A stretch of 64,000 nucleotides of DNA from Eledone cirrhosa (lineage: Eukaryota), in NCBI GenBank assembly GCA_964016885.1, contig OZ024741.1, forward strand, positions 135,842,001-135,906,000. Direction: 5' to 3'. A program made the translations under genes and the position numbers. This document shows positions 3,716 to 57,142 of this stretch, piece after piece. The notes under the pieces are model-generated. The model had not been told where the DNA came from. It did no database searches and saw only the letters and a list, made by a program, of their open reading frames with translations. How positions within the stretch are numbered: position 1 is the stretch's first letter; each line of letters starts with the position of its first letter.

Positions 3716-3790
3716 TATATGTCCACAAATAGATGCACACAAATATGTATATATATAAGTATTAATATATATATATATATATATATATAT

Positions 3791-4240
3791 AAACGGGAAA
3801 AATGAAACGAAATTTCATTTCTCACTCTTAGTACGGCTGTTACTTAAATATAAGTATGTATACGTACATAAATATATGTATACGGACGTATATATATATA
3901 TATATAGATACATGCACACATATATATATATATATATGTACGTATGGATTCACCGAACATTTAATATAATGCTCGGTGTGTTTGTAAACAAACATCCCGA
4001 ATTAAGCCGTACAGTGTCTAGCAACCATCGTTGCTCATTTGTTCAACACTGACAAAGGAACGCTGTACTAGTTTCAAGCTTATTAGCTATCGTCAGCAAC
4101 GTATACCTTCCTGCCAGATGATTGAACGTCTGAAAGTATGTACTTTCCTTATGCATATTAACGGCTGAGCAGCCTAATTTGCATATAGAGCGAGTTAATC
4201 GGCCGGGTGCACCGAAAACGGTAAACGGAAAAAATACATA

Positions 4241-4246
<6 letters not shown>
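3791..4246 (-). mobile_element. Retrozyme-like monomer (octamer, hammerhead, tail), a diverged homolog of the 467-bp unit
   Basis: The reverse complement aligns block by block with the 467-bp unit: ATGCAAATTAG, HHR, TGTTTACA and the TTAAG..CAG..TAC..AGTGAG..GAAATT tail. Flanked by (TA)n. Confidence 0.8.
4060..4102 (-). ncRNA. Type I hammerhead ribozyme with intact core
   Basis: acguug CUGACGA u-AGCU-aaua-AGCU-u GAAA CUAG UA^cagcgu. Stem I has 6 bp, stem II 4 bp, stem III is a minimal palindrome. Confidence 0.85.
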
Positions 4247-4285
<39 letters not shown>

Positions 4286-9887: not shown

Positions 9888-9928
<41 letters not shown>

Positions 9929-10021
9929 TAAGTTAAAGTGAGTTACAAACGAAACGAAATTTAATTTCGTTTCGTTATTTGTTTTTATCGTCTCCGTTGA
10001 ACCGGTACTTACTCACACTCT

Positions 10022-10029
10022 ATGCAAAT
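10022..10029 (+). promoter_or_regulatory. Octamer motif ATGCAAAT (also at 10489, 10956, 11423, 13575; minus strand 4177-4184 and 29835-29842)
   Basis: Perfect octamer within ATGCAAATTAG, retained in three otherwise strongly diverged element types, 70-100 nt upstream of the HHR core. Function is inferred. Confidence 0.6.
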
Positions 10030-10114
10030 TAGTCTGCCCACTACTAATTTTCATAGAAAAAGCATATAACGATATGTGCTTTTACGATTCTCTAGAGAGG
10101 CCGGAAGATAGGTA

Positions 10115-10159
10115 AATATTGCTGATGAGTTGTAACAACAACGAAACTAGTTCAATATT
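10115..10159 (+). ncRNA. Type I hammerhead ribozyme, unit 1
   Basis: aauauug CUGAUGA GUUGU-aaca-ACAAC GAAA CUAG UU^caauauu. Stem I has 7 bp, stem II 5 bp, stem III is palindromic. Predicted cut after 10152. Confidence 0.92.
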
Positions 10160-10581
10160 CCTTGTCTGGCTTTCTGGAGAATAGAGGAGAGGTGTTTCCT
10201 CAAAAACCAGTATGACTCTAAAAACCGGTTTGTCTGTGTGTTTACATACAGAATAGCTGGCCACTCACAGTAAAGTGACCAGTGAAAAAACTTGGTACAC
10301 CTACATATGTATACGTGTGTGTATTCATATACATACTAGTATTTCAGTATACATATATGGATGTACATCTTTAACTTAATTGTTTAAGCGTCAGTCATAC
10401 AAAAGTGAGTTACAAACGAAACGAAATTTAATTTCGTTTCGTTATTTGTTTTTATCGTCTCCGTTGAACCGGTACTTACTCACACTCTATGCAAATTAGT
10501 CTGCCCACTACTAATTTTCATAGAAAAAGCATATAACGATATGTGCTTTTACGATTCTCTAGAGAGGCCGGAAGATAGGTA

Positions 10582-10626
10582 AATATTGCTGATGAGTTGT
10601 AACAACAACGAAACTAGTTCAATATT
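10582..10626 (+). ncRNA. Type I hammerhead ribozyme, unit 2
   Basis: Identical to 10115-10159. Confidence 0.92.
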
Positions 10627-11048
10627 CCTTGTCTGGCTTTCTGGAGAATAGAGGAGAGGTGTTTCCTCAAAAACCAGTATGACTCTAAAAACCGGTTTGT
10701 CTGTGTGTTTACATACAGAATAGCTGGCCACTCACAGTAAAGTGACCAGTGAAAAAACTTGGTACACCTACATATGTATACGTGTGTGTATTCATATACA
10801 TACTAGTATTTCAGTATACATATATGGATGTACATCTTTAACTTAATTGTTTAAGCGTCATTTATACAAAAGTGAGTTACAAACGAAACGAAATTTAATT
10901 TCGTTTCGTTATTTGTTTTTATCGTCTCCGTTGAACCGGTACTTACTCACACTCTATGCAAATTAGTCTGCCCACTACTAATTTTCATAGAAAAAGCATA
11001 TAACGATATGTGCTTTTACGATTCTCTAGAGAGGCCGGAAGATAGGTA

Positions 11049-11093
11049 AATATTGCTGATGAGTTGTAACAACAACGAAACTAGTTCAATATT
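11049..11093 (+). ncRNA. Type I hammerhead ribozyme, unit 3
   Basis: Identical to 10115-10159. Confidence 0.92.
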
Positions 11094-11515
11094 CCTTGTC
11101 TGGCTTTCTGGAGAATAGAGGAGAGGTGTTTCCTCAAAAACCAGTATGACTCTAAAAACCGGTTTGTCTGTGTGTTTACATACAGAATAGCTGGCCACTC
11201 ACAGTAAAGTGACCAGTGAAAAAACTTGGTACACCTACATATGTATACGTGTGTGTATTCATATACATACTAGTATTTCAGTATACATATATGGATGTAC
11301 ATCTTTAACTTAATTGTTTAAGCGTCAGTCATACAAAAGTGAGTTACAAACGAAACGAAATTTAATTTCGTTTCGTTATTTGTTTTTATCGTCTCCGTTG
11401 AACCGGTACTTACTCACACTCTATGCAAATTAGTCTGCCCACTACTAATTTTCATAGAAAAAGCATATAACGATATGTGCTTTTACGATTCTCTAGAGAG
11501 GCCGGAAGATAGGTA

Positions 11516-11560
11516 AATATTGCTGATGAGTTGTAACAACAACGAAACTAGTTCAATATT
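11516..11560 (+). ncRNA. Type I hammerhead ribozyme, unit 4
   Basis: Identical to 10115-10159. Confidence 0.92.
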
Positions 11561-11849
11561 CCTTGTCTGGCTTTCTGGAGAATAGAGGAGAGGTGTTTCC
11601 TCAAAAACCAGTATGACTCTAAAAACCGGTTTGTCTGTGTGTTTACATACAGAATAGCTGGCCACTCACAGTAAAGTGACCAGTGAAAAAACTTGGTACA
11701 CCTACATATGTATACGTGTGTGTATTCATATACATACTAGTATTTCAGTATACATATATGGATGTACATCTTTAACTTAATTGTTTAAGCGTCAGTCATA
11801 CAAAAGTGAGTTACAAACGAAACGAAATTTAATTTCGTTTCGTTATTTG

Positions 11850-11931
<82 letters not shown>

Positions 11932-12791: not shown

Positions 12792-12987
12792 AACGAAGGA
12801 GGTGTGGTGAGGAACCAGATGGACCATAACGCAACAAGAGTACTCAATACTTAGGGTAGTAGAGTGGGTAATAGGAAAATATTTGACCCCGACGGCAGAG
12901 CTCAAGCCGTTTCGACGGCTATTCTGGACTAAGAAATAGCCGTCGAAACGGCTTGAGCTCTGCTGTCGGGGTCAAATATTTTCCTAT
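12792..12987. mobile_element. Short Penelope-LTR-like fold-back element (family also at about 5985-6045, 14149-14268, 57495-57715; relative at 31850-31935)
   Basis: An ~80-nt unpaired tail, then inverted arms ataggaaaatatttgaccccgacggcagagctcaagccgtttcgacggctatt and its reverse complement. The arms contain the HHR 3' half GAAA-CGG...CCG-UC. Confidence 0.7.
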
Positions 12988-12996
12988 ATATATATA

Positions 12997-14040
<1,044 letters not shown>

Positions 14041-29000: not shown

Positions 29001-29615
29001 GGCCGTAACTCTTTGCTGCAAAGCATAATGAATGAATATTACATAATTTATCTACTAAATTTCGTAAACAAAAATAATTTCGTAAAAATAAATAATATAA
29101 ATTTGACTTCTTTTCAAAGTTGCACTTCCGCTATATCGTCGCCACCACCATCACATCAACTACCATATATATAGAAAGAGAGAGTGTGTGATGTCAACAC
29201 TTCCGGTGGCGATCGCTTAAATAAACATACTAATTTTCTGTCACTAATTTTCTCCTAATGCAGTTTACAATATCGTCTTTTTTTAATGTATCGTGGATCA
29301 TGGATTACGTTACTGAAACATAGTCTTCGTTCAATTTCTGTGTATATTGTCAATTACGATTGTATTTGATGTATCATATCTACATGTATATACACCTGCG
29401 TATAATATCAATATACACACTACACCCGAAGGGTAGTTTTCTGCTAGTTATTATAATATTGGTTTCTTATATAGGCACAAGGCCAGCAATTTTTCGGGAG
29501 GGGAAAGTCGATTAAATCGGCCCAGTAGGTGACTGATACTTTATTTTATCGACCCCGTAAGGATGAAAGGCAAAGTTAACCTCGGCGGGATTTGAACTCA
29601 GATAATAAAGGGCCA

Positions 29616-30113
29616 TAATATTAATATTCTGTTTGTTTGCAAGTAAACAGCCTCATTAACACCAGGTGCATTTTCTAGATGACTATGTCATCGTTTTGTT
29701 CCAGAGGTGGCTGAGAAGAAACAGTCGCCAATTATCTCGGAAATGTTGAGACTGTGCATCCTCATCGCAGCTACGCCCTGCAACTGCTGAGATTACATAG
29801 TGTTTTCAAATGTATACATGGGCTGATTAGCCTAATTTGCATACCGAGCCAATTTACAGCCGACTTTGCCGTAAATTAAAAATACAATTTGTTTTCGCTC
29901 TAATATGCTAGATGACTAAATATATTCGTGAGTGAATAATTATAATATTATTAATATTCAGTTTATTTTGAAGCAAACAGCCTCATTAACACCATGTGTG
30001 TTTTCTAGATGACCATGTCATCCTTTTGTTCCAGTGGTAGTTGAGAGATAACAGTCGACAATTGTTTCGGAGTTGTTCCTCTCTATCAAGACTGTTTATC
30101 CTCGTCGCTGCTA
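29616..30113 (-). mobile_element. Decayed retrozyme-like partial dimer with a ~330-bp period
   Basis: cagcctcattaacacc recurs at 29648 and 29978. The minus strand has ATGCAAATTAGGC, TGTTTAC and the HHR remnant (c)GACGA GGA..UCC GAAA CAAUUG UC^gacug (about 30050-30108). Confidence 0.6.
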
Positions 30114-39088: not shown

Positions 39089-42000
39089 AATAATAATAAT
39101 AATAATGATTTCATTTATTGGCCACAAGGGCCGACATATAGGGGACAATACAAAAGATTGGGACAGTGGGGTTTTACAGAAAAATCGAGTAAACAATATG
39201 AATAACAATAACAAAGTAACAATAACAAAGTAATAATAAAGTAACAATAAAGTTACAACAAGAAAAAATTCCACAATAGGGAGGATGACCACCCAGGGTT
39301 CGTTCAGGTACCCCACCAATCCTGAACGACTCGACGCTTCGAGAGCACTCTGGAAGGGCACCCCCTCTCCTCCTCAAATTTACCTACCTACAGCCGTATG
39401 ACCAGAGTAGGGCCACTCACACGGGCCATTCTCGCCACATTCACCCACCTTTCAGCAAATGTACTGGGGGGCAGCACTTCTCTCTCCACCCTCATATTCC
39501 TTTCCAAGTGAAACTTGAAAAAGTTGATGAGGGATTAGCCGAAGAGAACAGTGTCTGTCTTCAGTCCTTTCAACCTCGTCCACCATACAACCTCTTTCGC
39601 TACTGCCACCAGACAGAGGAAAATTGCCTACCCTTCCTGGCCAAAAGAAGGCGGCGGGTCAATCTTCACTATGGACTCGGCCGATAGCCGGATCCGTTCT
39701 ACACGCGACAACAGCTGTTCAACATAACTCCACAAGTCAGTAATGCACGGACACTGGACAAGTGCGTGCAGAACGGTTTCGTCGCTCTGCGCACATGTCG
39801 GGGAGGTCCGTTTGACAGCACTTCCGTGCCTGTAGAGTTTATCTCGAACCGGCAGTGCCCCTCGGTAGCACTGCCAAGCGAGGGATTTTTGGAAATTATC
39901 CATCGACCCCGGCTCGAAAGTCCTCCGGTACAGACTGGTTAGTTCGACTTCGTTGACTCCCAGAGCCTCTCCGAGTGCGTCGTCGCACTTGCCCACCACT
40001 AATCCTCTATAGAACTCGAGAGTGGAAGTTCCACTGACCGCATTGCCCTTCTGGTAGAGGGCAGTGAGTTCCTGGCAACATTCCAGATGCTAGTCACTCA
40101 GTCTCGATCTCTTCTTGACCAGGACTGCAGCTCAGTCAAAGAAACGAGCTGCAGAAAGGCCCGTTTGACAAACGGCGACCACACTTGTTCACCGTTTAGG
40201 CAGAATATCTGGAGTTGTCGCAGCCTCAGCGCATGCCTGCGCATCATTAGCCACGGCATACCCATCCCTCCACGTAGAAGGAGGTTGCAGCAGATGGACC
40301 GCCTCACCAGCGGAACCTGACCCCTCCACAAGAATTTGAAGGGGAGTCGTTCCAAGATGGCGATGCGCGAACGTGGGCAAGGGACGACGGTCAGACGGTA
40401 GTAGATGACGGACGCGATGTACGCGTTCGCCACCTCCGCCCGACCTTTCAGTGATAGCTTCATCCCAGCCCATTTCTGGGTGAGACTGGCTACCCTGCCC
40501 GTCACCTCGTCCCAATTCTTATCCACCTGGAGGTCTGGCCCGAACCAAACCCTTAGCAACTTTACCGGTCCGTCCGTCCAGCGCCTAACGAGCCTGTTGG
40601 ACGGCATGGACTTGCCTCTCCAGGTGCCGAGTTGCAAGCCCACCGACTTTTCCGGGTTAAGTTTTGCTCCCGTCAACCTTTCATATTCCTCCAATAAGTT
40701 GCCGACCACCTCGATTTCTGAGTTGTCCGACACCATCACGGTGATGTCGTCCGCATAAGCCGACACAGCCTTTCCGCGTCCCGGTTCGAGCGGGATGCCC
40801 TGCAACAGCCCCAGCTTCCGCAGTAAAGGCTCGAGAGTCAATACCTACAAAAGGGAGGAGAGAGGGCACCCTTGACGGACCGATCGGGAGACCTGAAACG
40901 GTTCCGAGAGGTGGCCATTAATTTTGACCATCGAGCAGGTGCCGTTGTGCATTGCAGCGATCCAGCTTCTGAAGACGGGGCCGAAGCCAGCCGCCTTGAG
41001 GACAGCCTCCAGGTATCGAATGCTTTCGATTGATCTAAATTGATTAGAGCCCCACCGAAGCCAGGTTTACACCCTACCCTCTCTATGATGTATCGCATTA
41101 CGTGGAGGTTGTCGTGTGTGGACCTGGTTGGGATTGCGCAAGTTTGCGCCTCTCCAACCAAATCCCCGACGACAAGCGCCAACCTCTTCGCTAACACCCT
41201 GGCCAAAATCTTAAATTCTGTGTTGAGCAGAGTTATGGGCCTGAAATTGTCTCATGTGTCCCTCTTGTTCTCGTCTTTCCTTATAAGCGTCACTACGCCC
41301 CGGCTCACAGAACTGGGAATACTCCCGTTTTGCTGCCACTTGCAGTAGAGGGCTTCGAGGAGATTGGAGAACAAGTCTGGCATATTTACGTAAAACTCGT
41401 AGGGCAGACCATCCAAACCGGGTGACTTGCGCCTCATGCAGCCGACAAGGGCATCCTGAATCTAGGCTGAAGTAATTGGCCTTTCGCAGCGCCCAGCGTC
41501 AGCCGTCGTGAGTTTCGGCAAGCCATCGAGTTAGGGACTGAAGTCCGCCACCATCTCTGACCCGTCACTTCCCCCGGACAACCGAGCACAATGTTGGCGA
41601 AAGGCCTCACACATCCGCTTAGAATCGCTCAGCTCGTGTCCGTCTCGGTCCGTCAAAGACCGAATCGTGGTTTTGTTACCACGCTGCGCCTCTGCCACGC
41701 GGGCCCATCGAACAGCTTTGGCTCCCTCGTTTCTCAGAGCACGCGCTTTAGCTCTGACAATGCAACCTTCGTGTTTCGCATTGAAGAAATGGTCTAATGC
41801 CATTCTCGCCGCTAGCACATCAGTTGCAATGCCACTACCAATAGCCTCGTCTAACTTATCTACCAACTCCTCCTCCTTTCTATTTTTCTCTAACGCTACT
41901 TCTTTGCTAAACTCTATCGACATTACTCTAGTCTCTCTTTTGAGAGCCCCCCACCATCTATTGTTGACGACTCCCCCTGTCAACTTTTTCTTAACTAAAT

Positions 42001-51262: not shown

Positions 51263-51780
51263 TAATCATTGGAAAATATGGCTTTGTTCACTTTGCAAAC
51301 ATGACTGACGCCGTCTCCTCTCTCTCAATCGAGAAGAACTCTGTAGAGCTTTGAAGGGACCTTATAGTTTCTGGGCTGTTGGATCATGTAACCTTAAATA
51401 CATGGAATCAATAAACATATATTACAGACAAGATGGAACGCCTTTGAACATGTTTAGATTCGCTCATGCCAGCACTGGGGCAAAAGGACAAGTTGACACA
51501 GCACATATAATAGCTCAAAAACAACATGACACAACGGAGGCTATGAGTAAACAATAACTTTGACACAACACAAACACTAAACAATGATCACGTCAAAAAT
51601 ACATATTCTATATAACCAACAACGTCACAACCAACAGCAAATATCCTACAAATTCACCATTCACATAACACATATTCTACAAAATAACCATCCACACAAT
51701 CCACAATACATACTCTACAAAATACCCCCCCCACACACACACACAACTCACAACATATTCTACAAAATCCCCACCCCCTA

Positions 51781-53360
51781 CACACAACCCACAAAACATA
51801 CTCTACAACATAACACCCCACACACAACCCACAACACATACACTACAACATAACACCCCACACACAACCTACAACACATATCTACAACATAACACCCCAC
51901 ACACAACCCACAACACATACACTACAACATAACACCCCACACGCAACCCACAACACATACACTACAACATAACACCCCACACACAACCCACAAAACATAC
52001 TCTACAACATAACACCCCACAGACAACCCACAACATATACACTACAACATAACACCCCACACACAACCCACAATACATACTCTACAACATAACACCCCAC
52101 AGACAACCCACAACACATACACTACAACATAACACCCCACACACAACCCACAAAACATACTCTACAACATAACACCCCACAGACAACCCACAACACATAC
52201 ACTACAACATAACACCCCACACACAACCCACAACACATATCTACAACATAACACCCCACACAACCCACAACACATATCTACAACATACCACCCCACACAC
52301 AACCCACAACACATACACTACAACATAACACCCCACACGCAACCCACAACACATACACTACAACATAACACCCCACACGCAACCCACAACACATACACTA
52401 CAACATAACACCCCACACGCAACCCACAACACATACACTACAACATAACACCCCACACACAACCCACAACACATATCTACAACATACCACCCCACACACA
52501 ACCCACAGCACATACACTACAACATACCACCCCACCCATAACCCACAACACATACACTACAACATAACACCCCACACACAACCCACAACACATATCTACA
52601 ACATAACACCCCACACACAACCACAACACATATCTACAACATAACAGCCCACACACAACCCACAACACATACACTACAACATAACACCCCACACACAACC
52701 CACAACACATATCTACAACATAACACCCCACACACAACCCACAACACATATCTACAACATAACACCCCACACACAACCCACAGTAACATACACTACAACA
52801 TAACACCCCACACACAACCCACAACACATACACTACAACATAACACCCCACACACAACCCAGAACACATATCTACAACATAACACCCCACACACAACCAC
52901 AACACATATCTACAACATAACACCCTACACACAACCCACAACACATACACTACAACATAATACCCAACACACAACCCACAACACATACACTACAACATAA
53001 CACCCCACACACAACTCACAACACATATCTACTACATAACACCCCACATACAACCCACAACACATACACTACAACATAATACCCCACACACAACCCACAA
53101 CACATACACTACAACATAACACCCCACATACAACCCACAACACATATCTACAACATAACACCCCACACACAACCCACAACACATACACTACAATATAACA
53201 CCCCACACAACCCACAACACATATCTACAACATAACACCCCGCACACAACCCACAACACATACACTACAACATAACACCCCACACACAACCCACATCACA
53301 TACACTACAACATAACACCCCACACACAACCCACAACACATATCTACAACATAATACTCC
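51781..53360. repeat. 40-bp C/A-rich minisatellite, about 40 copies
   Basis: Unit ACACAACCCACAACACATACACTACAACATAACACCCCAC, with a 39-bp ATATCT variant. Confidence 0.95.
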
Positions 53361-53834
53361 ACACAACACAAAATAATTACTCTACAAAATAACCACCAAC
53401 ATAAACAATAAATACTCAACAAAATAACCACCCACACAACACACTCTATAATTACCACCTACACGTCAAATTCTACACAGTCGCCACCTACACAATCGAC
53501 AAGCTACACAATTACCTCCCAATGATATACACAAAACATACTCTACACACTGTCCGTATAATTAGTAGCTGGCATTAAAGCATAATAACAATAGCAGCCC
53601 GTCTTAGGAAGGTCCCCGCAAGGTAGGGGTGGCTGTTGCAGCGGATATCGCTGGCCATTGTCCACGGACATGCGTTTACCCTCGGCCTAGAGCCCATCAC
53701 CGTCCCTCTTCACCCTTCCATTCTTCTGTAACCCTAGAACCCTTACTCTTCCCTTCATTTTGCGTTTTTAAATATCTGTTATGTTGTTATTTGAAATAGA
53801 TTTGTTTACGATTTTTATAACAATATATTTACAT

Positions 53835-56800
53835 TCCGAGTTCAAATCCCGCCGAGGTTAACTTTGCCCTTCATCCTTACAGGGTCGATAAAATAAAGTA
53901 CCAGTAATACACTGAAATAATTGCTGGCCTTGTGCCAAAAGTAGAAACAAATATATTTACAATACTATCATCAATAAAACAACAAACCTCACAGAAATAG
54001 CACACGAAACAAATGTTATAGACAGGCAAATGATAATGTTACTCACACCTCAACAGCTTGGAGATGTACAAGACACTCACAGGAATCTGTTGAATAAAGA
54101 AAATAATTATAAATATTATAATTACAGTATTTTTTAATGCAGGCAAAAGGCCAGCAATTTGTAGGGAAGAAAAAGTCGATAATATCGATCCCGATACTTT
54201 ACTGGTACTTTGTTTTATCAACTCCGAAAAGACGAAAGATAACTTTGACCTCGAAAGGATTTGAACTAAGAACTAAAAGAACATAGTACCAAACAGTATA
54301 GCATTTTCTCCAGCGATCTGACAATTCTACCAATCCACCCCCATTAGTTTCTAACTTAGGAACAAGGTGAGCAAGCAGTGTATTTCTAGTAGATTTTATC
54401 GACTCCAACACTAGTTTAGTACTTTATTTTCTCGACCCTGAAAGGATGAAAGGCAAGGTTGAACGCAGCAGGATTAATAATTATTGTTTCTACTTTAAGC
54501 ACAAGGTCAGCTATTTGAAGGGGATGGGAAAGTCGGTTAAATCGACCCCAGTATATTACTGGTGCTTTATTTCTCGACACCGTAAGGCTGAAAGGCAAAG
54601 CTATCCTTAATAATTGTTTCTACTTTTGGCACAAGGCCAGCAATTACTCAGTACATTACTGGTACTTTATTTTATTGACCCCATAAGGATGAAAGGCAAA
54701 GTTGACCTCGGCGGGATTTGAACTCAGAATGGAAAGGGCCGTAACTCTATGTGTCAAAGCAGGACGTCTGACCCTCTACCGATATTGCCAATCCACCGCC
54801 CTAAAGCTAACCTTAATAATAATATTAATAGTTGTTTCTACTTTTGGCACAAGGCCAACAATTTGAAGGGGAGGGGAAAGTCGATTAAATCAATCCCTGA
54901 GAGATGAAAGGCAGCGTTGACCCCTGGTCGGAATAAAGTGTGACTTTCAATGATAATATTTTTTTCTCATTTAGACGCAAACCTAATCATTTATCGTGAG
55001 GAGAGTTCGATTATATCGACCTAGAAAGATGAAAGTAAATTTGATTCCGGCAGGGTTGCAATACTTTTTCAATAATAATGATTATTAATTTAGGCACAAA
55101 GCCAGTAATTTGTGGGGCGATGAAATTCGACCCAGTATTTTACTAGTACTATATTTTATCGACCACTGAAGGATGAATGGTAAAGTTGACCTTGGCAAGA
55201 TTTAAACGCAGTATAAAAAGGGTGGGCACAAGGCCAGTAATTTGGGGCGAGGAGAAAGTCGATTAAATCGACTCCAATACGTTACTGGTGTTTTATTTTA
55301 TCGACCCCGTAAGGATGAAAGGCAAAGTTAACCTCGGTGGGATTTGAACTCAGACCGTAAAGGATCGTAACTCTATGCTGCAAAGCATGGCCTCCGACTC
55401 TCTACCGATACTGCCAATCCACCGCCCTAAGGGTGGGAACAAATACTGATAAGCATGTGTTCGATGTTCTACTAGGGAATTACATGAGATGAAGGAGATA
55501 AGGGACAACATGGGGATAGGGTTTTTAAATAGAAATTGGAAAAAATAATGGTTTATTATATAATAATTGTTTCTACTTTTGGCACAAGGCCAGCAATTAT
55601 CCCAGTGTATTTCTGGTACTTTATTTTATCGACCCCGTAAGGATGAAAGGCAAAGTTAATATAATAATATAATTGTTTCTACTTTTGGCACAAGGCCAGC
55701 AATTATTCCAGTACATTACTGGTACTTTATTTTATCGACCACGTAAGGATGAAAAGCAAAGTTAACCTCGATAATATAATAATATTAAAACAGCTGCTAA
55801 GTTCTATACTTTCGGCACTGTAAGAAATTATTTTAACAGTTTATTTTTTCATTATTAAAAATCAATTTTACCTAGTTTCCATGTAACCTATAAAAGTGCT
55901 AAAAGCAATAAACTTTAAGACTCATACGTATTTTAAATGATTCGTTTTAATTGCCTGTATTTTCTAAACATGTGAATGTTGTACATAATGTATAATGATC
56001 GTGTAACTCTTAGTTGTCATAAATCAACTATATATATATTTACTGATTGATTTACTGAGAAAGTTATTGTAAGAGTTGTTTCCCTTACATTATAAATCAT
56101 ACATGGAGATATGACATCTAAGTATCTTTGGTCCCGTAACTCCTAATTGCGTTGTAGGAGCGACTTATCAATACCGCTTTTCTTGGCCATTTTTCGTTGT
56201 TAAACCTAGCGGAGTCATCTCCTCTCTAAGTCTGAATACACCAGATTTCTTCCAGTGACGAATTGAGAGTTAGACGATGTAAGTGAAAAAAGATATATAG
56301 ATGAAGAAACGACCCCAGTGCTAAACTAATAATTTTATTATCGACCTCGAATGGATGAAAGGTAAAGTTGACTTCGGCAGGATTTGAACTCAGAGAGCCA
56401 GAACAAATGCGCGAAGCATTCTATTCGAAGTTCTAACGACTATGCAAATTCGTTGCCTATATGACATTTATATTTTCTAGTATATTAATAAATTTAAATG
56501 GAATGATTATATCATAGTTATTTCAAACTTTGAGCATTCTACACACATCAGATATCTCTACTGTAGAAATAAGTTTATTTCTATATATACATAAAAAAAC
56601 AACATATACGTATAAATATTCTAAATAATGATTTGAAGAGCATTAATTTATTTAGTACAATTTTAGGGATACGGGGAACGAATATTTTCAAGATTTTTTA
56701 TTTTATGTGAATTATTTGAATTTGATATTTCAATTAAATAAGTTTAGTAAATTCCTTTTAAGTTCATAGGTTTGAGCCTTCGATAGTTGTTTCCCTTGGC

Positions 56801-57118
56801 AGATGAAGGCCACAGGAACTGTTGATATAAGCAGCCAGGCGTTCCCATTCAGTTAACAGTATATGGCTTGTTTGTATAATTACAAACGAACGAATCGAAT
56901 GTTATTGCCTTTCATCCTTACGGGGTCGATAAAATAAAGTACCAGTAATACACTGGTTATTTGCTGGCCTTGTGCCAAAAGTAGAAACAATTATTAATAT
57001 ACGAAAATCCCGCCGAGGTTAACTTTGCCTTTCATCCTTACGGGGTCGATAAAATAAAGTACCAGTAATACACTAGGTTATTGCTGGCCTTGTGCCAAAA
57101 GTAGAAACAATTATTAAT
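53835..57118. mobile_element. Dense cluster of complete and truncated tRNA-derived SINEs, mostly on the minus strand and head-to-tail at 54140-55770
   Basis: More than ten copies of ttgtttctacttttggcacaaggcc..ttttatcgaccccgtaaggatgaaaggcaaag, separated by aataat spacers. Confidence 0.9.
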
Positions 57119-57142
57119 ATTAAAAAAACTCAGATTACATTG

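What the first reader, a model, noticed from the sequence alone, without database searches (positions are those of the whole stretch)
10000..10260. Internal octamer plus TGTTTAC module conserved across three retrozyme subfamilies: possible snRNA-type internal promoter
Seen: ATGCAAATTAG lies 70-100 nt upstream of the HHR core, and a Forkhead-type TGTTTAC lies about 190-215 nt downstream of the octamer. This holds in the 467-bp unit, the 3.8-4.2 kb copy and the 29.6-29.9 kb copy, which otherwise barely align. Known: the octamer is the POU-bound distal element of snRNA promoters, and newt satellite 2 HHR repeats are transcribed from an internal snRNA-type promoter with an octamer. Inference: each unit carries its own promoter, which could drive transcription into the next unit. 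That would be a mollusc parallel of the amphibian system and would also spread POU/Fox sites around the genome.
Basis: partly seen in the sequence, partly recalled or inferred. Interest (0 to 1): 0.75.

Follow-up and report, generated by a model that had tools for sequence, protein, structure and literature searches.

The report
Ribozyme repeats carry U6-type promoter box
A 12-base block kept unchanged in three families of self-cleaving ribozyme repeats is identical to the box that lies 78 bases upstream of this animal's own U6 and RNase MRP RNA genes, so each repeat unit likely carries a small-RNA-gene promoter that would fire just ahead of its ribozyme.

Summary
The octamer is real. It is part of a 12-mer, TATGCAAATTAG, the longest invariant run (12; next is GAAAC, 5) between three homologous hammerhead retrozyme families that are only 49-62% alike. 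At least 25,668 units genome-wide carry it 60-110 nt upstream of a CUGANGA box; the reversed-pattern control gave 1.

The TGTTTAC half fails. It is not column-homologous between families, is absent from the family C majority and from subfamily B2, and is not enriched in the window.

The "distal POU octamer" reading is not supported. The host's U1/U2 promoters have a different proximal box at -57, a different distal box at about -260 and no octamer, and the retrozymes carry neither box. H2B promoters also lack an octamer.

The host's U6 genes (three loci), its RNase MRP gene and its best U6atac gene do carry the same 12-mer (0-1 mismatch) at -77 to -79, with TATA at -30. The retrozymes have a TATA-like box 43-44 nt after the block, against 47-49 in the genes. 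This predicts a start at about 10095-10100, just before the ribozyme.

My reading is a U6/MRP-type upstream promoter, likely Pol III, made heritable by tandem or circular topology. No transcription data were obtained. This is a new variant of a known kind.

The parts
9935..11856 (+). Family A retrozyme array: 4.1 tandem units of 467 bp, flanked by (TA)n on both sides. The 5' junction carries a 14-nt inverted piece (9924-9937). The 3' end lies at the T5 run.
   Evidence: TRF; sequence. The genome holds at least 229 matches at 99-100% identity on many contigs, often as head-to-head arrays.
10021..10032 (+). Conserved 12-mer TATGCAAATTAG (contains the octamer). It repeats at 10488, 10955, 11422 and 13574. 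It is identical to the -78 box of host U6 gene L242. The TATGCAAATGAG variant matches U6 gene L241 and the RNase MRP gene.
10043..10055 (+). 3' arm (ACTAATTTTCATA) of an inverted repeat whose 5' arm is the 12-mer. The predicted RNA hairpin spans 10019-10057.
   Evidence: minus-strand 1-mismatch hits.: -11.3 kcal/mol, z -3.9. The hairpins of B (z -1.8) and C (z -0.5) are weaker.
10065..10069 (+). TATA-like box (TATAA), 44 nt after the block start. The equivalents are TATATA at +43 in B1/B2, TATGTA at +44 in C and TATAAC in D. It repeats at 10532, 10999, 11466 and 13618.
   Evidence: In 30 old family-C copies, the window around this box is the least changed of 351 windows.
10095..10100 (+). Predicted transcription start: TATA + 30, or box + 77 to 79, by analogy with host U6/MRP/U6atac genes. 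Inferred, not observed.
   Evidence: Host gene geometry; sequence.
10104..10175 (+). Type I hammerhead ribozyme. Helix I is ATATTG/CAATAT, the core is CTGATGA (10122-10128), helix II is GTTGT/ACAAC, then GAAA, then a loop-less palindromic helix III ACT/AGT. The predicted cut is after T10152 (10152|10153). The palindromic helix III implies cleavage as a dimer.
   Evidence: Rfam HH9, 37.7 bits, below the gathering score of 52; helices I-III have 0 mismatches in A, B1, B2 and C, with covarying helices I and II; paired T>A 10130 and A>T 10141 variants in helix II.
10415..10453 (+). 13-bp hairpin (AACGAAACGAAAT..ATTTCGTTTCGTT) followed by a T5 run (10449-10453; also 9982-9986, 10916, 11383, 11850, 13535, 14004). 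Arrays end here against (TA)n. It is a candidate Pol III stop and reverse-transcription entry site.
   Evidence: Loose ends running into (TA)n at 9988 and 10455.
10239..10245 (+). TGTTTAC of the finding. It is present in this unit but is not a conserved or column-homologous element.
13101..14010 (.). Second family A insertion. An inverted 5'-truncated copy (13101-13367, minus strand) is followed by 1.4 plus-strand units (13358-14010), 93-95% identical to the array. This is Penelope-type architecture.
3785..4262 (-). Family B (B1) single unit. The 12-mer is at 4185-4174, CTGACGA at 4096-4090, and TGTTTAC at 3990-3984. The TATA-like box is mutated to TACATA in this copy (4143-4136).
   Evidence: The genome search gave 2135 candidates, with copies 89-94% identical and a unit of about 447 bp.
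29610..30113 (-). Family C, an old copy: one unit (29960-29610) plus a partial upstream unit. The 12-mer is at 29843-29832. The ribozyme core is decayed in the main unit. The CAATTGTC helix III palindrome survives only at 30064-30057.
   Evidence: The genome search gave 1745 candidates, with copies 74-80% identical to this one.

Best explanation
The conserved block is a copy of the host's own U6/RNase-MRP-type upstream promoter box. Together with a TATA-like box 43-44 nt downstream, it likely forms a promoter inside every retrozyme unit. That promoter would start transcription, probably by RNA polymerase III, about 55 nt before the hammerhead cut site.

SHOWN
- The 12-mer is the most conserved stretch of three homologous retrozyme families.
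- The same 12-mer sits at -77 to -79 of host U6, RNase MRP and U6atac genes, each with TATA at -30.
- The retrozymes have a TATA-like box at a conserved distance, in the same orientation, pointing at the ribozyme.
- The ribozyme helices covary.
- Insertions have Penelope-type architecture in (TA)n.

INFERRED
- The box recruits the same factors as in the snRNA genes.
- The start lies at about 10095-10100, so the whole ribozyme (10104-10175) is in the transcript and the short leader is cut off.
- Transcripts that pass the T5-T6 run reach the next ribozyme and release unit-length RNA that can be circularised.
- Because the unit is tandem or circular, an upstream ('external') promoter is copied with the element. 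A linear SINE could not do this.
For: CONSERVATION OF THE BLOCK
1. The longest invariant run among A, the B majority and the C majority is TATGCAAATTAG (12). The next is GAAAC (5). Pairwise identity is 49-62%. The run is also invariant across 7 sequences of subfamilies A1, A', A3, B1, B2 and C.
2. Genome-wide there are 25,668 units with the block 60-110 nt upstream of CUGANGA, against 1 for the reversed control.

THE SAME BOX IN HOST GENES
3. Best match to the box, and its position:
- U6 L242: 0 mismatches at -78
- U6 L241: 0 mismatches at -77 (TATGCAAATGAG form)
- U6 C19 array: 1 mismatch at -79
- RNase MRP: 0 mismatches at -78
- U6atac L284: 1 mismatch at -78
- 6 U1 classes, 4 U2 classes and RNase P: nothing better than 2-4 mismatches anywhere in 400 nt
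4. All five box-bearing genes have TATA at -30.
5. The TATGCAAATGAG form of MRP and U6 L241 is also the variant in about 10 of 30 family-C copies.

GEOMETRY IN THE RETROZYMES
6. A TATA-like box lies at +43 or +44 from the block start in A, B1, B2 and C, and at the matching place in D.
7. Its surroundings are the least-changed window in 30 old C copies: 9 mismatches against a median of 45.
8. Box and TATA point toward the ribozyme. TATA + 30 and box + 77 to 79 converge on 10095-10100, a run of purines 4-9 nt before the ribozyme's outer helix I.
9. T runs of 4 or more on the sense strand are absent from the predicted transcript body in A (0 seen, 2.3 expected, P 0.063) and B1 (0 seen, 2.6 expected, P 0.047). 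They cluster at the unit's 3' hairpin, where arrays end. Host terminators are T5-T10.

POPULATION VARIATION
10. In the contigs of runs X1, X4, X5 and X6, no variant at 10% or more lies in 10018-10085 (box to TATA) in X1. The whole unit has 23 variable sites.

LITERATURE CONTEXT
11. Penelope pLTRs harbour the transcription start and an internal promoter (PMC8557442, passages read).
12. Schistosome hammerhead SINE-like elements are reported as Pol III-transcribed and need tandems of at least two units (PMC6765202, passage read).
13. Newt satellite 2 has an snRNA-type promoter (as cited in PMC2220036, passage read).
Against: - Box-to-TATA spacing is 43-44 nt in the retrozymes but 47-49 nt in all five host genes. 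This is about half a helical turn and could matter.
- The host distal box is absent from the units.
- A T5 run (A) or T6+T6+T4 runs (B1) lie between successive ribozymes. Host MRP and U6atac genes end at T5-T6. Pol III might therefore stop before a second ribozyme and give no unit-length RNA. Read-through is assumed, not shown.
- Family C has a T4 run inside the predicted body (P 0.76).
- Family D, abundant and with near-identical copies, has only a diverged version of the box (TCTGCATAATCAG) and no octamer: 0 of 30 loci have one within the unit.
- RNase P RNA, another classical Pol III type-3 gene, lacks the box and uses the U1/U2-type box.
- 9 of 10 U6atac-like hits lack the box, though these score lower and several sit in (TA)n.
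- Among dispersed copies, the block is not exceptionally preserved: rank 67 of 437 windows in B and 39 of 351 in C. Individual copies therefore show no clear selection.
- The block is also the 5' arm of a hairpin, so an RNA-level role is not excluded.
- No transcription start, polymerase or expression data were obtained.
Confidence: 0.55

Rival explanations
1. Octamer plus TATA acts as an ordinary Pol II proximal promoter bound by a POU-domain factor, as in immunoglobulin-type promoters. The match to U6/MRP arises only because those genes use the same factor.
For: - There is a perfect ATGCAAAT consensus with a TATA-like box about 43 nt downstream.
- The T5-T6 runs between ribozymes would not stop Pol II, so unit-length and multimeric RNA is easy to explain.
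- The box-to-TATA spacing differs from the Pol III genes, 43-44 against 47-49.
- Newt satellite 2 is reported as Pol II-transcribed (PMC2220036 and PMC6765202, passages read).
Against: - In this host, the Pol II promoters examined do not use the octamer. It is within 400 bp in 1 of 24 U1/U2 upstream regions, at -399, and in 0 of 10 H2B upstream regions.
- The identity extends beyond the octamer to the full 12-mer of the U6/MRP box, including the T/G alternative at position 10.
- Sense-strand T-run depletion in A and B1 fits Pol III, but only weakly.
Confidence: 0.15
2. The block works at the RNA or cDNA level. It is one arm of a conserved hairpin recognised by the mobilising Penelope-like reverse transcriptase/endonuclease, or needed for the folding and stability of the circular RNA. 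The resemblance to the U6/MRP box is a coincidence.
For: - The block is the 5' arm of an inverted repeat in A (12-nt arms, 1 mismatch; z -3.9) and in B. Family D keeps a different palindrome (AATCAG/CTGATT) at the same place.
- The monomer RNA is strongly structured: -148 kcal/mol, z -9.7.
- A Penelope-like RT needs a specific RNA segment for template use (PMC11167929, main text part 1 read).
Against: - The 5' arm is invariant while the 3' arm drifts. The hairpin is weak in B (z -1.8) and not significant in C (z -0.5). This is the pattern of a sequence-specific site, not of a structure.
- A structural 3'-end element is already present: a hairpin plus T run at the array end, which does change sequence while keeping pairing.
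- An exact 12-mer, or one mismatch, at a fixed -77 to -79 in five host genes is very unlikely by chance.
Confidence: 0.12
3. The block has no present function. It is simply the best-preserved remnant of the common ancestor of the three families.
For: - Dispersed copies do not preserve it exceptionally: rank 67 of 437 and 39 of 351.
- Family D does without it.
Against: - A 12-column invariant run in an alignment with 108 invariant columns, where the ribozyme's catalytic core gives runs of at most 5.
- It is retained in every young, actively amplified subfamily sampled: A1, A', A3, B2.
- It matches a positioned host promoter box.
Confidence: 0.08
4. The octamer is the POU-bound distal element of a Pol II snRNA-type promoter and works with a Forkhead TGTTTAC site about 200 nt downstream.
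For: Octamer and TGTTTAC occur at similar distances (193-217 nt) in the three window copies.
Against: - The host distal element is TTACCTCCCTTG, not an octamer.
- The host's Pol II proximal box (TCAGTnGAT at -57) is absent from the units.
- TGTTTAC is not conserved, not column-homologous and not enriched.
Confidence: 0.05

Closest known systems
Metazoan non-LTR retrozymes (Cervera & de la Pena 2020, PMC7229834; Li et al. 2026 preprint, 10.64898/2026.07.22.740005)
   Same: - Tandem units of a few hundred bp, each with a type I hammerhead.
- Low GC: 34-37%.
- A strongly self-paired monomer RNA.
- Penelope-like insertion architecture.
- A mollusc example (mussel) is already described in PMC7229834.
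   Different: Neither paper analyses a promoter. In the PMC7229834 main text, 'promoter' refers only to T7. In the preprint it occurs 0 times. The supplements of PMC7229834 could not be read and may hold sequences that bear on this. Here a candidate promoter is identified by identity with host U6/MRP promoter boxes.
Newt satellite 2 with its snRNA-type promoter (Coats, Zhang & Epstein 1994; known to me only through citations in PMC2220036 and PMC6765202; the paper itself, PMC308520, is not held)
   Same: A hammerhead-bearing tandem repeat with a promoter of snRNA-gene type inside the unit. The ribozyme has a minimal helix III and acts as a dimer.
   Different: - The newt promoter is reported as Pol II-type.
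- From recall, not from any call here, it has a proximal element plus an octamer-containing distal element.
- Here the matching host element is the proximal box of U6/MRP/U6atac genes with a TATA box, which points to the Pol III type-3 class.
- The host's Pol II snRNA boxes are absent.
Schistosome Sm-alpha/Sj-alpha hammerhead SINE-like elements (as reviewed in PMC6765202)
   Same: - Hammerhead repeats reported as Pol III-transcribed.
- The promoter ends up at the 3' end of cleaved RNA.
- At least two tandem units are needed for a unit to be transcribed with its promoter.
   Different: Those elements use an internal tRNA-like promoter (recalled). Here the candidate is an upstream, gene-external box plus TATA, which only a tandem or circular element can carry along.
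Penelope-like elements (PMC8557442, PMC4209133)
   Same: - Partial tandems (pLTR).
- An adjacent inverted 5'-truncated copy.
- A (TA)n insertion preference.
- Hammerheads in the repeat, some cleaving as dimers.
- The pLTR carries the transcription start in Penelope.
   Different: No reverse transcriptase or GIY-YIG ORF is part of these units. The autonomous partner was not sought here. The only RT remnant in the window (39.6-41.3 kb) is LINE-like.

Membership tests
Non-LTR (metazoan) retrozyme | Type I hammerhead with conserved core and three helices in each tandem unit | tested here: met
   - CUGANGA, GAAA and an N-U-H cut site are present.
- Helices I-III have 0 mismatches in A, B1, B2 and C.
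- Helix I covaries: ATATTG/CAATAT, ACGTTG/CAGCGT, ACGGTG/CATCGT, ACAGTC/GACTGT.
- Rfam HH9 scores 37.7 bits, below the gathering score of 52.
- A compensatory variant pair 10130/10141 is seen in contigs.
Non-LTR (metazoan) retrozyme | Short tandem units, low GC, highly self-paired monomer RNA | tested here: met
   Units are 467, about 447 and about 360 bp. GC is 0.34-0.37. The fold has z -9.7.
Non-LTR (metazoan) retrozyme | Expressed as circular RNA | not testable with these tools
   No run on record as RNA holds the sequence. Contigs cannot show circles or ends.
Pol III type-3 (U6-type) upstream promoter | Proximal upstream element matching that of the host's own U6-class genes | tested here: met
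   The match is 12 of 12 with U6 L242 (-78). The G variant matches U6 L241 (-77) and MRP (-78) 12 of 12. The match is 11 of 12 with the U6 C19 array and with U6atac.
Pol III type-3 (U6-type) upstream promoter | TATA box at a fixed distance downstream of the proximal element | tested here: inconclusive
   A TATA-like box is present in all families, at +43/44. The five host genes have it at +47 to +49.
Pol III type-3 (U6-type) upstream promoter | Distal enhancer element at about -220 to -270 | tested here: not met
   The best PWM scores for the host distal box (TTACCTCCCTTG) in the units are 3.7-7.2 bits, against 18-26 for real sites, and are not above shuffles.
Pol III type-3 (U6-type) upstream promoter | Oligo-T terminator after the transcribed body and none inside it | tested here: inconclusive
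   A and B1 have no T4+ run in the predicted body (P 0.063 and 0.047) and have T5 or T6 clusters at the 3' hairpin. C has one T4 inside (P 0.76).
Pol III type-3 (U6-type) upstream promoter | Transcription by Pol III from a defined start | not testable with these tools
   No 5'-end or polymerase data were available.
Newt-type Pol II snRNA promoter (proximal element + distal octamer) | Host Pol II snRNA proximal element present in the unit | tested here: not met
   The U1/U2 box (TCAGTnGAT at -56 to -58 in 10 of 10 classes) scores 7.0-9.8 bits in the units, against 14-21 for real sites.
Newt-type Pol II snRNA promoter (proximal element + distal octamer) | Octamer used as the distal element of host snRNA genes | tested here: not met
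   An octamer lies within 400 bp in 1 of 24 U1/U2 upstream regions, at -399. The distal box is a different sequence in 9 of 10 classes.
Forkhead-site module (TGTTTAC) | Conserved motif at a homologous position across families | tested here: not met
   It falls in different columns in A and in B/C. The C majority reads TGTTTGC and B2 reads TGTTGAC. It is not enriched in the window.
Penelope-like element derivative | Partial tandem plus adjacent inverted 5'-truncated copy, with insertion into (TA)n | tested here: met
   Window 13101-14010 and 9924-11856. Head-to-head arrays at many genomic loci.
Penelope-like element derivative | Sequence relation to the pLTR of an autonomous RT/GIY-YIG element in the same genome | not tested
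No Penelope-like ORF lies in the window.

The most novel reading that the evidence does not exclude
A gene-external Pol III (U6/MRP-type) promoter has been made heritable by a retroelement. The retrozyme RNA is cut at the ribozyme and closed into a circle, or copied as a tandem, so the upstream box and TATA travel with the element.

Each new array then re-creates promoter, then ribozyme, then body, then hairpin/T-run units. More than 25,000 copies of the host's U6-type box now sit in the genome. They could compete with the snRNA genes for their dedicated transcription factors.
Probability: 0.4. Interest if true: 0.8.

Novelty: new variant of a known kind. Interest (0 to 1): 0.68.

Why it matters
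Animal retrozymes are reported to be transcribed at very high levels in all tissues (PMC7229834). But what drives that transcription is not addressed in the papers I could read: 'promoter' means only T7 in PMC7229834 and occurs 0 times in the 2026 preprint. My searches for 'retrozyme' with 'polymerase III' and for 'proximal sequence element' with 'hammerhead' and 'satellite' found no such report.

Identity between the most conserved retrozyme block and the host's positioned U6/MRP/U6atac promoter box gives a concrete, testable answer. It names the sequence to mutate, the expected start site and the polymerase to inhibit.

It would also explain why these elements must be tandem. It would give an invertebrate counterpart to the newt satellite 2 and schistosome systems. 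And it raises the question of whether tens of thousands of copies of an snRNA promoter box load the snRNA transcription machinery.

As a by-product, the promoter architecture of this host's U1, U2, U6, U6atac, MRP and RNase P genes is laid out. This is useful, for example, for choosing guide-RNA promoters.

Tried and rejected
- RNA evidence: no RNA holder is listed for the family A sequence. The six holders are of unrecorded kind.
- Laying contigs of X1, X4, X5 and X6 gave variants but, being contigs, no starts, ends or levels. I do not use their depth.
- A second read-laying job was meant to tell whether X1 is RNA or DNA, using a U1 tandem repeat. The machine was unreachable four times. I dropped the question.
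- Rfam at gathering thresholds finds nothing in the window. In E-value mode, most hits are chance matches of microRNA models to (TA)n.
- Sampling hammerheads genome-wide with Rfam HH9 scored only 58 of about 177,000 candidates. All 30 loci returned belonged to one other family (D). It was therefore not the unbiased sample I wanted.
- H2B promoters were tested as a possible host octamer model: 0 of 10 have an octamer.
- PWM scans for the U1/U2 proximal and distal boxes in the units were negative.
- T-run depletion is only marginal.
- Conservation among dispersed copies cannot test function, because copies decay neutrally after insertion.
- The newt promoter paper (PMC308520) is not held, and the supplement of PMC7229834 is unreadable.
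- Earlier notes of this scan held nothing relevant.
- The autonomous Penelope-like partner was not searched for.
- The host taxon ('mollusc' in the finding) was not checked.
Full report
WHAT IS THERE

The coordinates 10000-10260 lie in the first full unit of a 467-bp tandem array (9935-11856, 4.1 copies, 99% alike), flanked on both sides by (TA)n. Each unit has a hammerhead ribozyme. Rfam HH9 matches 10104-10175 at 37.7 bits, which is below the gathering score of 52 (E 1e-8 on the 121-nt stretch). At gathering thresholds Rfam reports nothing in the window.

My own parse gives these parts for family A:
- core: CTGATGA
- helix II: GTTGT/ACAAC
- then GAAA
- helix III: a loop-less palindrome, ACT/AGT
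- helix I: ATATTG/CAATAT
- predicted cut: after T10152

Helix I covaries between families: ACGTTG/CAGCGT in B1, ACGGTG/CATCGT in B2 and ACAGTC/GACTGT in C. There are 0 mismatches in helices I and III in all four. In contigs of public runs, the pair 10130 T>A and 10141 A>T changes together in helix II. A palindromic helix III without a loop means the ribozyme can only form across two copies. This is described for newt and Penelope-associated hammerheads (references listed in PMC6765202 and PMC7229834). The monomer RNA is predicted to be strongly self-paired (-148 kcal/mol, z -9.7).

A second family A insertion at 13101-14010 has an inverted 5'-truncated copy next to 1.4 direct units. Family A is young and dispersed: at least 229 matches at 99-100% identity on many contigs, often as head-to-head arrays. 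Partial tandems, an adjacent inverted truncated copy and (TA)n targets are the marks of Penelope-like elements (PMC8557442, passages read). A 2026 preprint argues that animal retrozymes derive from Penelope pLTRs (10.64898/2026.07.22.740005; abstract and passages read).

THE OBSERVATION

ATGCAAATTAG is exact in every family A unit, in the family B unit at 4174-4184(-) and in the family C unit at 29832-29842(-). With up to 1 mismatch there are 13 matches against 2.67 expected, and 0 of 100 shuffles reach 13.

The three families are homologous over most of the unit: A-B 62.5%, B-C 59% and A-C 49% identity. 'Barely align' is therefore too strong. In the three-way alignment the longest invariant run is TATGCAAATTAG (12 columns). 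The next is the ribozyme's GAAAC (5). There are 108 invariant columns in all. The run stays invariant when subfamilies A', A3, B2 and a further B1 copy are added. Genome-wide, the 12-mer followed at 60-110 nt by CUGANGA occurs 25,668 times, against 1 for the reversed control.

TGTTTAC is a different matter:
- It occurs 20 times in the window against 15 expected, and 8 of 100 shuffles reach 20.
- It sits in different alignment columns in A and in B/C.
- It reads TGTTTGC in the majority of 30 family-C copies.
- It reads TGTTGAC in subfamily B2.

It is not part of a conserved module.

WHY COPY-LEVEL CONSERVATION IS NOT THE RIGHT TEST

I did this for B and C:
- B: 41 copies, mean identity to the majority 95.3%. 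The block window has 9 mismatches, rank 67 of 437.
- C: 30 copies, mean identity 85.4%. The block window has 23 mismatches, rank 39 of 351, and the octamer is intact in 23 of 30.

The block is better than the median but not extreme. Dispersed copies decay neutrally after insertion, so this says little about function in the lineages that amplify. The between-family comparison above is the informative one. A fourth family, D, was found through a genome-wide hammerhead search; all 30 loci returned belong to it. It has only a diverged version of the block and no octamer, yet its sampled copies are very alike. The block is therefore not indispensable for this kind of element.

TESTING THE snRNA IDEA AGAINST THE HOST'S OWN GENES

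I fetched U1 (42 hits) and U2 (48 hits) genes. The 60 loci give 24 distinct upstream regions.
- Ten representative classes share a proximal box, aaaTCAGTnGAT, at -56 to -58 (10 of 10).
- Nine of the ten share a distal box, TTACCTCCCTTG, at -254 to -268.
- An octamer occurs within 400 bp in 1 of the 24 upstream regions, at -399.
- Position-weight matrices of both boxes score 14-21 and 18-26 bits on the real sites. On the retrozyme units they score only 7.0-9.8 and 3.7-7.2 bits, no better than shuffles.
- H2B genes, a possible octamer-using class, have none (0 of 10).

A Pol II snRNA-type promoter with a distal octamer is therefore not what the retrozyme carries.

The U6 genes changed the picture.
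- The two best U6 genes have the block at the same proximal place: TATGCAAATTAG at -78 (L242) and TATGCAAATGAG at -77 (L241).
- The tandem U6 array on contig 19 has TATGCTAATTAG at -78 or -79.
- All have TATA at -30. L241 and L242 also have the common distal box at -262 and -268.
- Of 12 distinct upstream classes among the 30 best U6 loci, 9 have the box at that place, two of them with a second mismatch. One class has the promoter split by an insertion. Two lack it.
- Twelve lower-scoring U6 hits are promoterless. 8 were parsed as 5'-truncated retrocopies and 4 were not parsed.

Other genes of the classical Pol III type-3 class:
- The single RNase MRP gene has TATGCAAATGAG at -78 and TATA at -30.
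- The best U6atac gene has TATGGAAATTAG at -78 and TATA at -30. The nine weaker U6atac-like hits lack the box.
- RNase P RNA lacks it and uses the U1/U2-type box.

A uniform scan confirms this. There are 0-1 mismatches at -77 to -79 in U6 (3 loci), MRP and U6atac. Nothing is better than 2-4 mismatches anywhere in 400 nt upstream of 6 U1 classes, 4 U2 classes and RNase P. The T/G alternative at position 10 of the box is also the main variant among family C copies.

GEOMETRY IN THE RETROZYME

A TATA-like box follows the block start at +44 (A, TATAA, 10065-10069), +43 (B1 and B2, TATATA) and +44 (C, TATGTA). D keeps TATAAC at the matching place. Around it lies the least-changed window of the old C copies. 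In the host genes the spacing is 47-49, so the retrozyme spacing is 3-6 nt shorter. This is a real discrepancy.

TATA + 30 and box + 77 to 79 both point to 10095-10100, a purine run 4-9 nt before the outer helix I of the ribozyme. A transcript from there would contain the whole ribozyme and lose a leader of about 55 nt at the cut.

On the sense strand, T runs of four or more are absent from the predicted body of A and B1 (P 0.063 and 0.047 against shuffles). C has one (P 0.76). T runs cluster at a hairpin near the unit's 3' end. Arrays end exactly there against (TA)n, at 11850-11856 and 14004-14010. Host terminators are T5-T10.

This fits a Pol III unit, but it creates a problem. A T5 or T6 run lies between successive ribozymes, so unit-length RNA needs read-through, which I assume but cannot show.

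WHAT I CONCLUDE

Shown:
- the block, its exceptional between-family conservation and its copy number
- the covarying ribozyme
- the Penelope-type insertions
- the host promoter architecture
- the identity of the block with the -78 box of U6, MRP and U6atac genes

Inferred:
- that the block and the TATA-like box act as a promoter
- the start site
- the polymerase
- read-through

I put 0.55 on a U6/MRP-type promoter function. Within that, Pol III is more likely than not. The rivals are:
- a POU-driven Pol II octamer/TATA promoter (0.15)
- an RNA or cDNA hairpin signal (0.12). The block is the 5' arm of an inverted repeat; z is -3.9 in A, but -1.8 in B and -0.5 in C.
- an inert relic (0.08)

COMPARISON WITH WHAT IS KNOWN

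Retrozymes in molluscs are known (mussel; PMC7229834). A promoter of snRNA type inside a hammerhead satellite is known from the newt (Coats et al. 1994, seen only as cited in PMC2220036 and PMC6765202). Pol III transcription with a need for tandems is reported for schistosome elements (PMC6765202).

What I found no report of is a retrozyme carrying the host's U6/MRP-type upstream box plus TATA.
- Searches.
- Texts checked.
- The supplement of PMC7229834 was unreadable.

I therefore file this as a new variant of a known kind. No transcription data could be obtained. No run on record as RNA holds the sequence, and the second read-laying job never ran.

Noticed in passing
L031-L060 (e.g. L036:1113-1600); not in the window: A fourth retrozyme family (D), also in (TA)n with head-to-head copies. 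Its hammerhead core reads TTGATAA in place of CTGATGA. This changes positions 3 and 8 together (U3/A8 in place of C3/G8), and family C shares the A8 form. If active, it would be a natural swap of the core base pair.
   Followed up: partly
L121-L180, L241-L270, L283, L284, L294: The host's small-RNA promoters fall into two classes.
- U1, U2 and RNase P have TCAGTnGAT at about -57.
- U6, U6atac and MRP have TATGCAAAT(T/G)AG at -78 plus TATA at -30.
- U1, U2, U6 and RNase P share a distal TTACCTCCCTTG at about -254 to -285; none was picked up upstream of the MRP or U6atac genes.
RNase P grouping with the Pol II-type box is unexpected.
   Followed up: partly
window 12876-12983: An almost perfect 108-nt inverted repeat (AAAATATTTGACCCCGACGGCAGAGCTCAAGCCGTTTCGACGG...), flanked by (TA)n. 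The same element lies upstream of the U6 retrocopies L254 and L281. It looks like a foldback or MITE-like repeat family. It produced chance microRNA hits in Rfam.
   Followed up: no
window 29520-29610, 55563-55780, 56905-57120; also L247, L271: A short dispersed repeat (…GTCGATAAAATAAAGTACCAG…GCCTTGTGCC…), probably a SINE. One copy splits the promoter of U6 genes in the contig 19 array.
   Followed up: no
L271-L282: Many U6 hits are 5'-truncated copies. Their T run is followed by a shared GGGCGGTG… sequence, which suggests chimeric U6 retrocopies fused to another element.
   Followed up: no
window 39628-41251 (-): A decayed LINE-like reverse transcriptase (RVT_1 plus zf-RVT) split over three reading frames. 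It is unrelated to the retrozymes.
   Followed up: partly
window 51667-53438: A CA-rich minisatellite with nested periods of 40, 119, 236 and 276 bp, about 1.7 kb long.
   Followed up: no
window 9935-10870, as seen in runs X1, X4, X5, X6: Near-identical family A sequence is held by runs filed under four different organism labels. For example, one 497-nt contig has 5 differences over 482 aligned letters. The family is therefore shared by several labelled taxa or samples.
   Followed up: no
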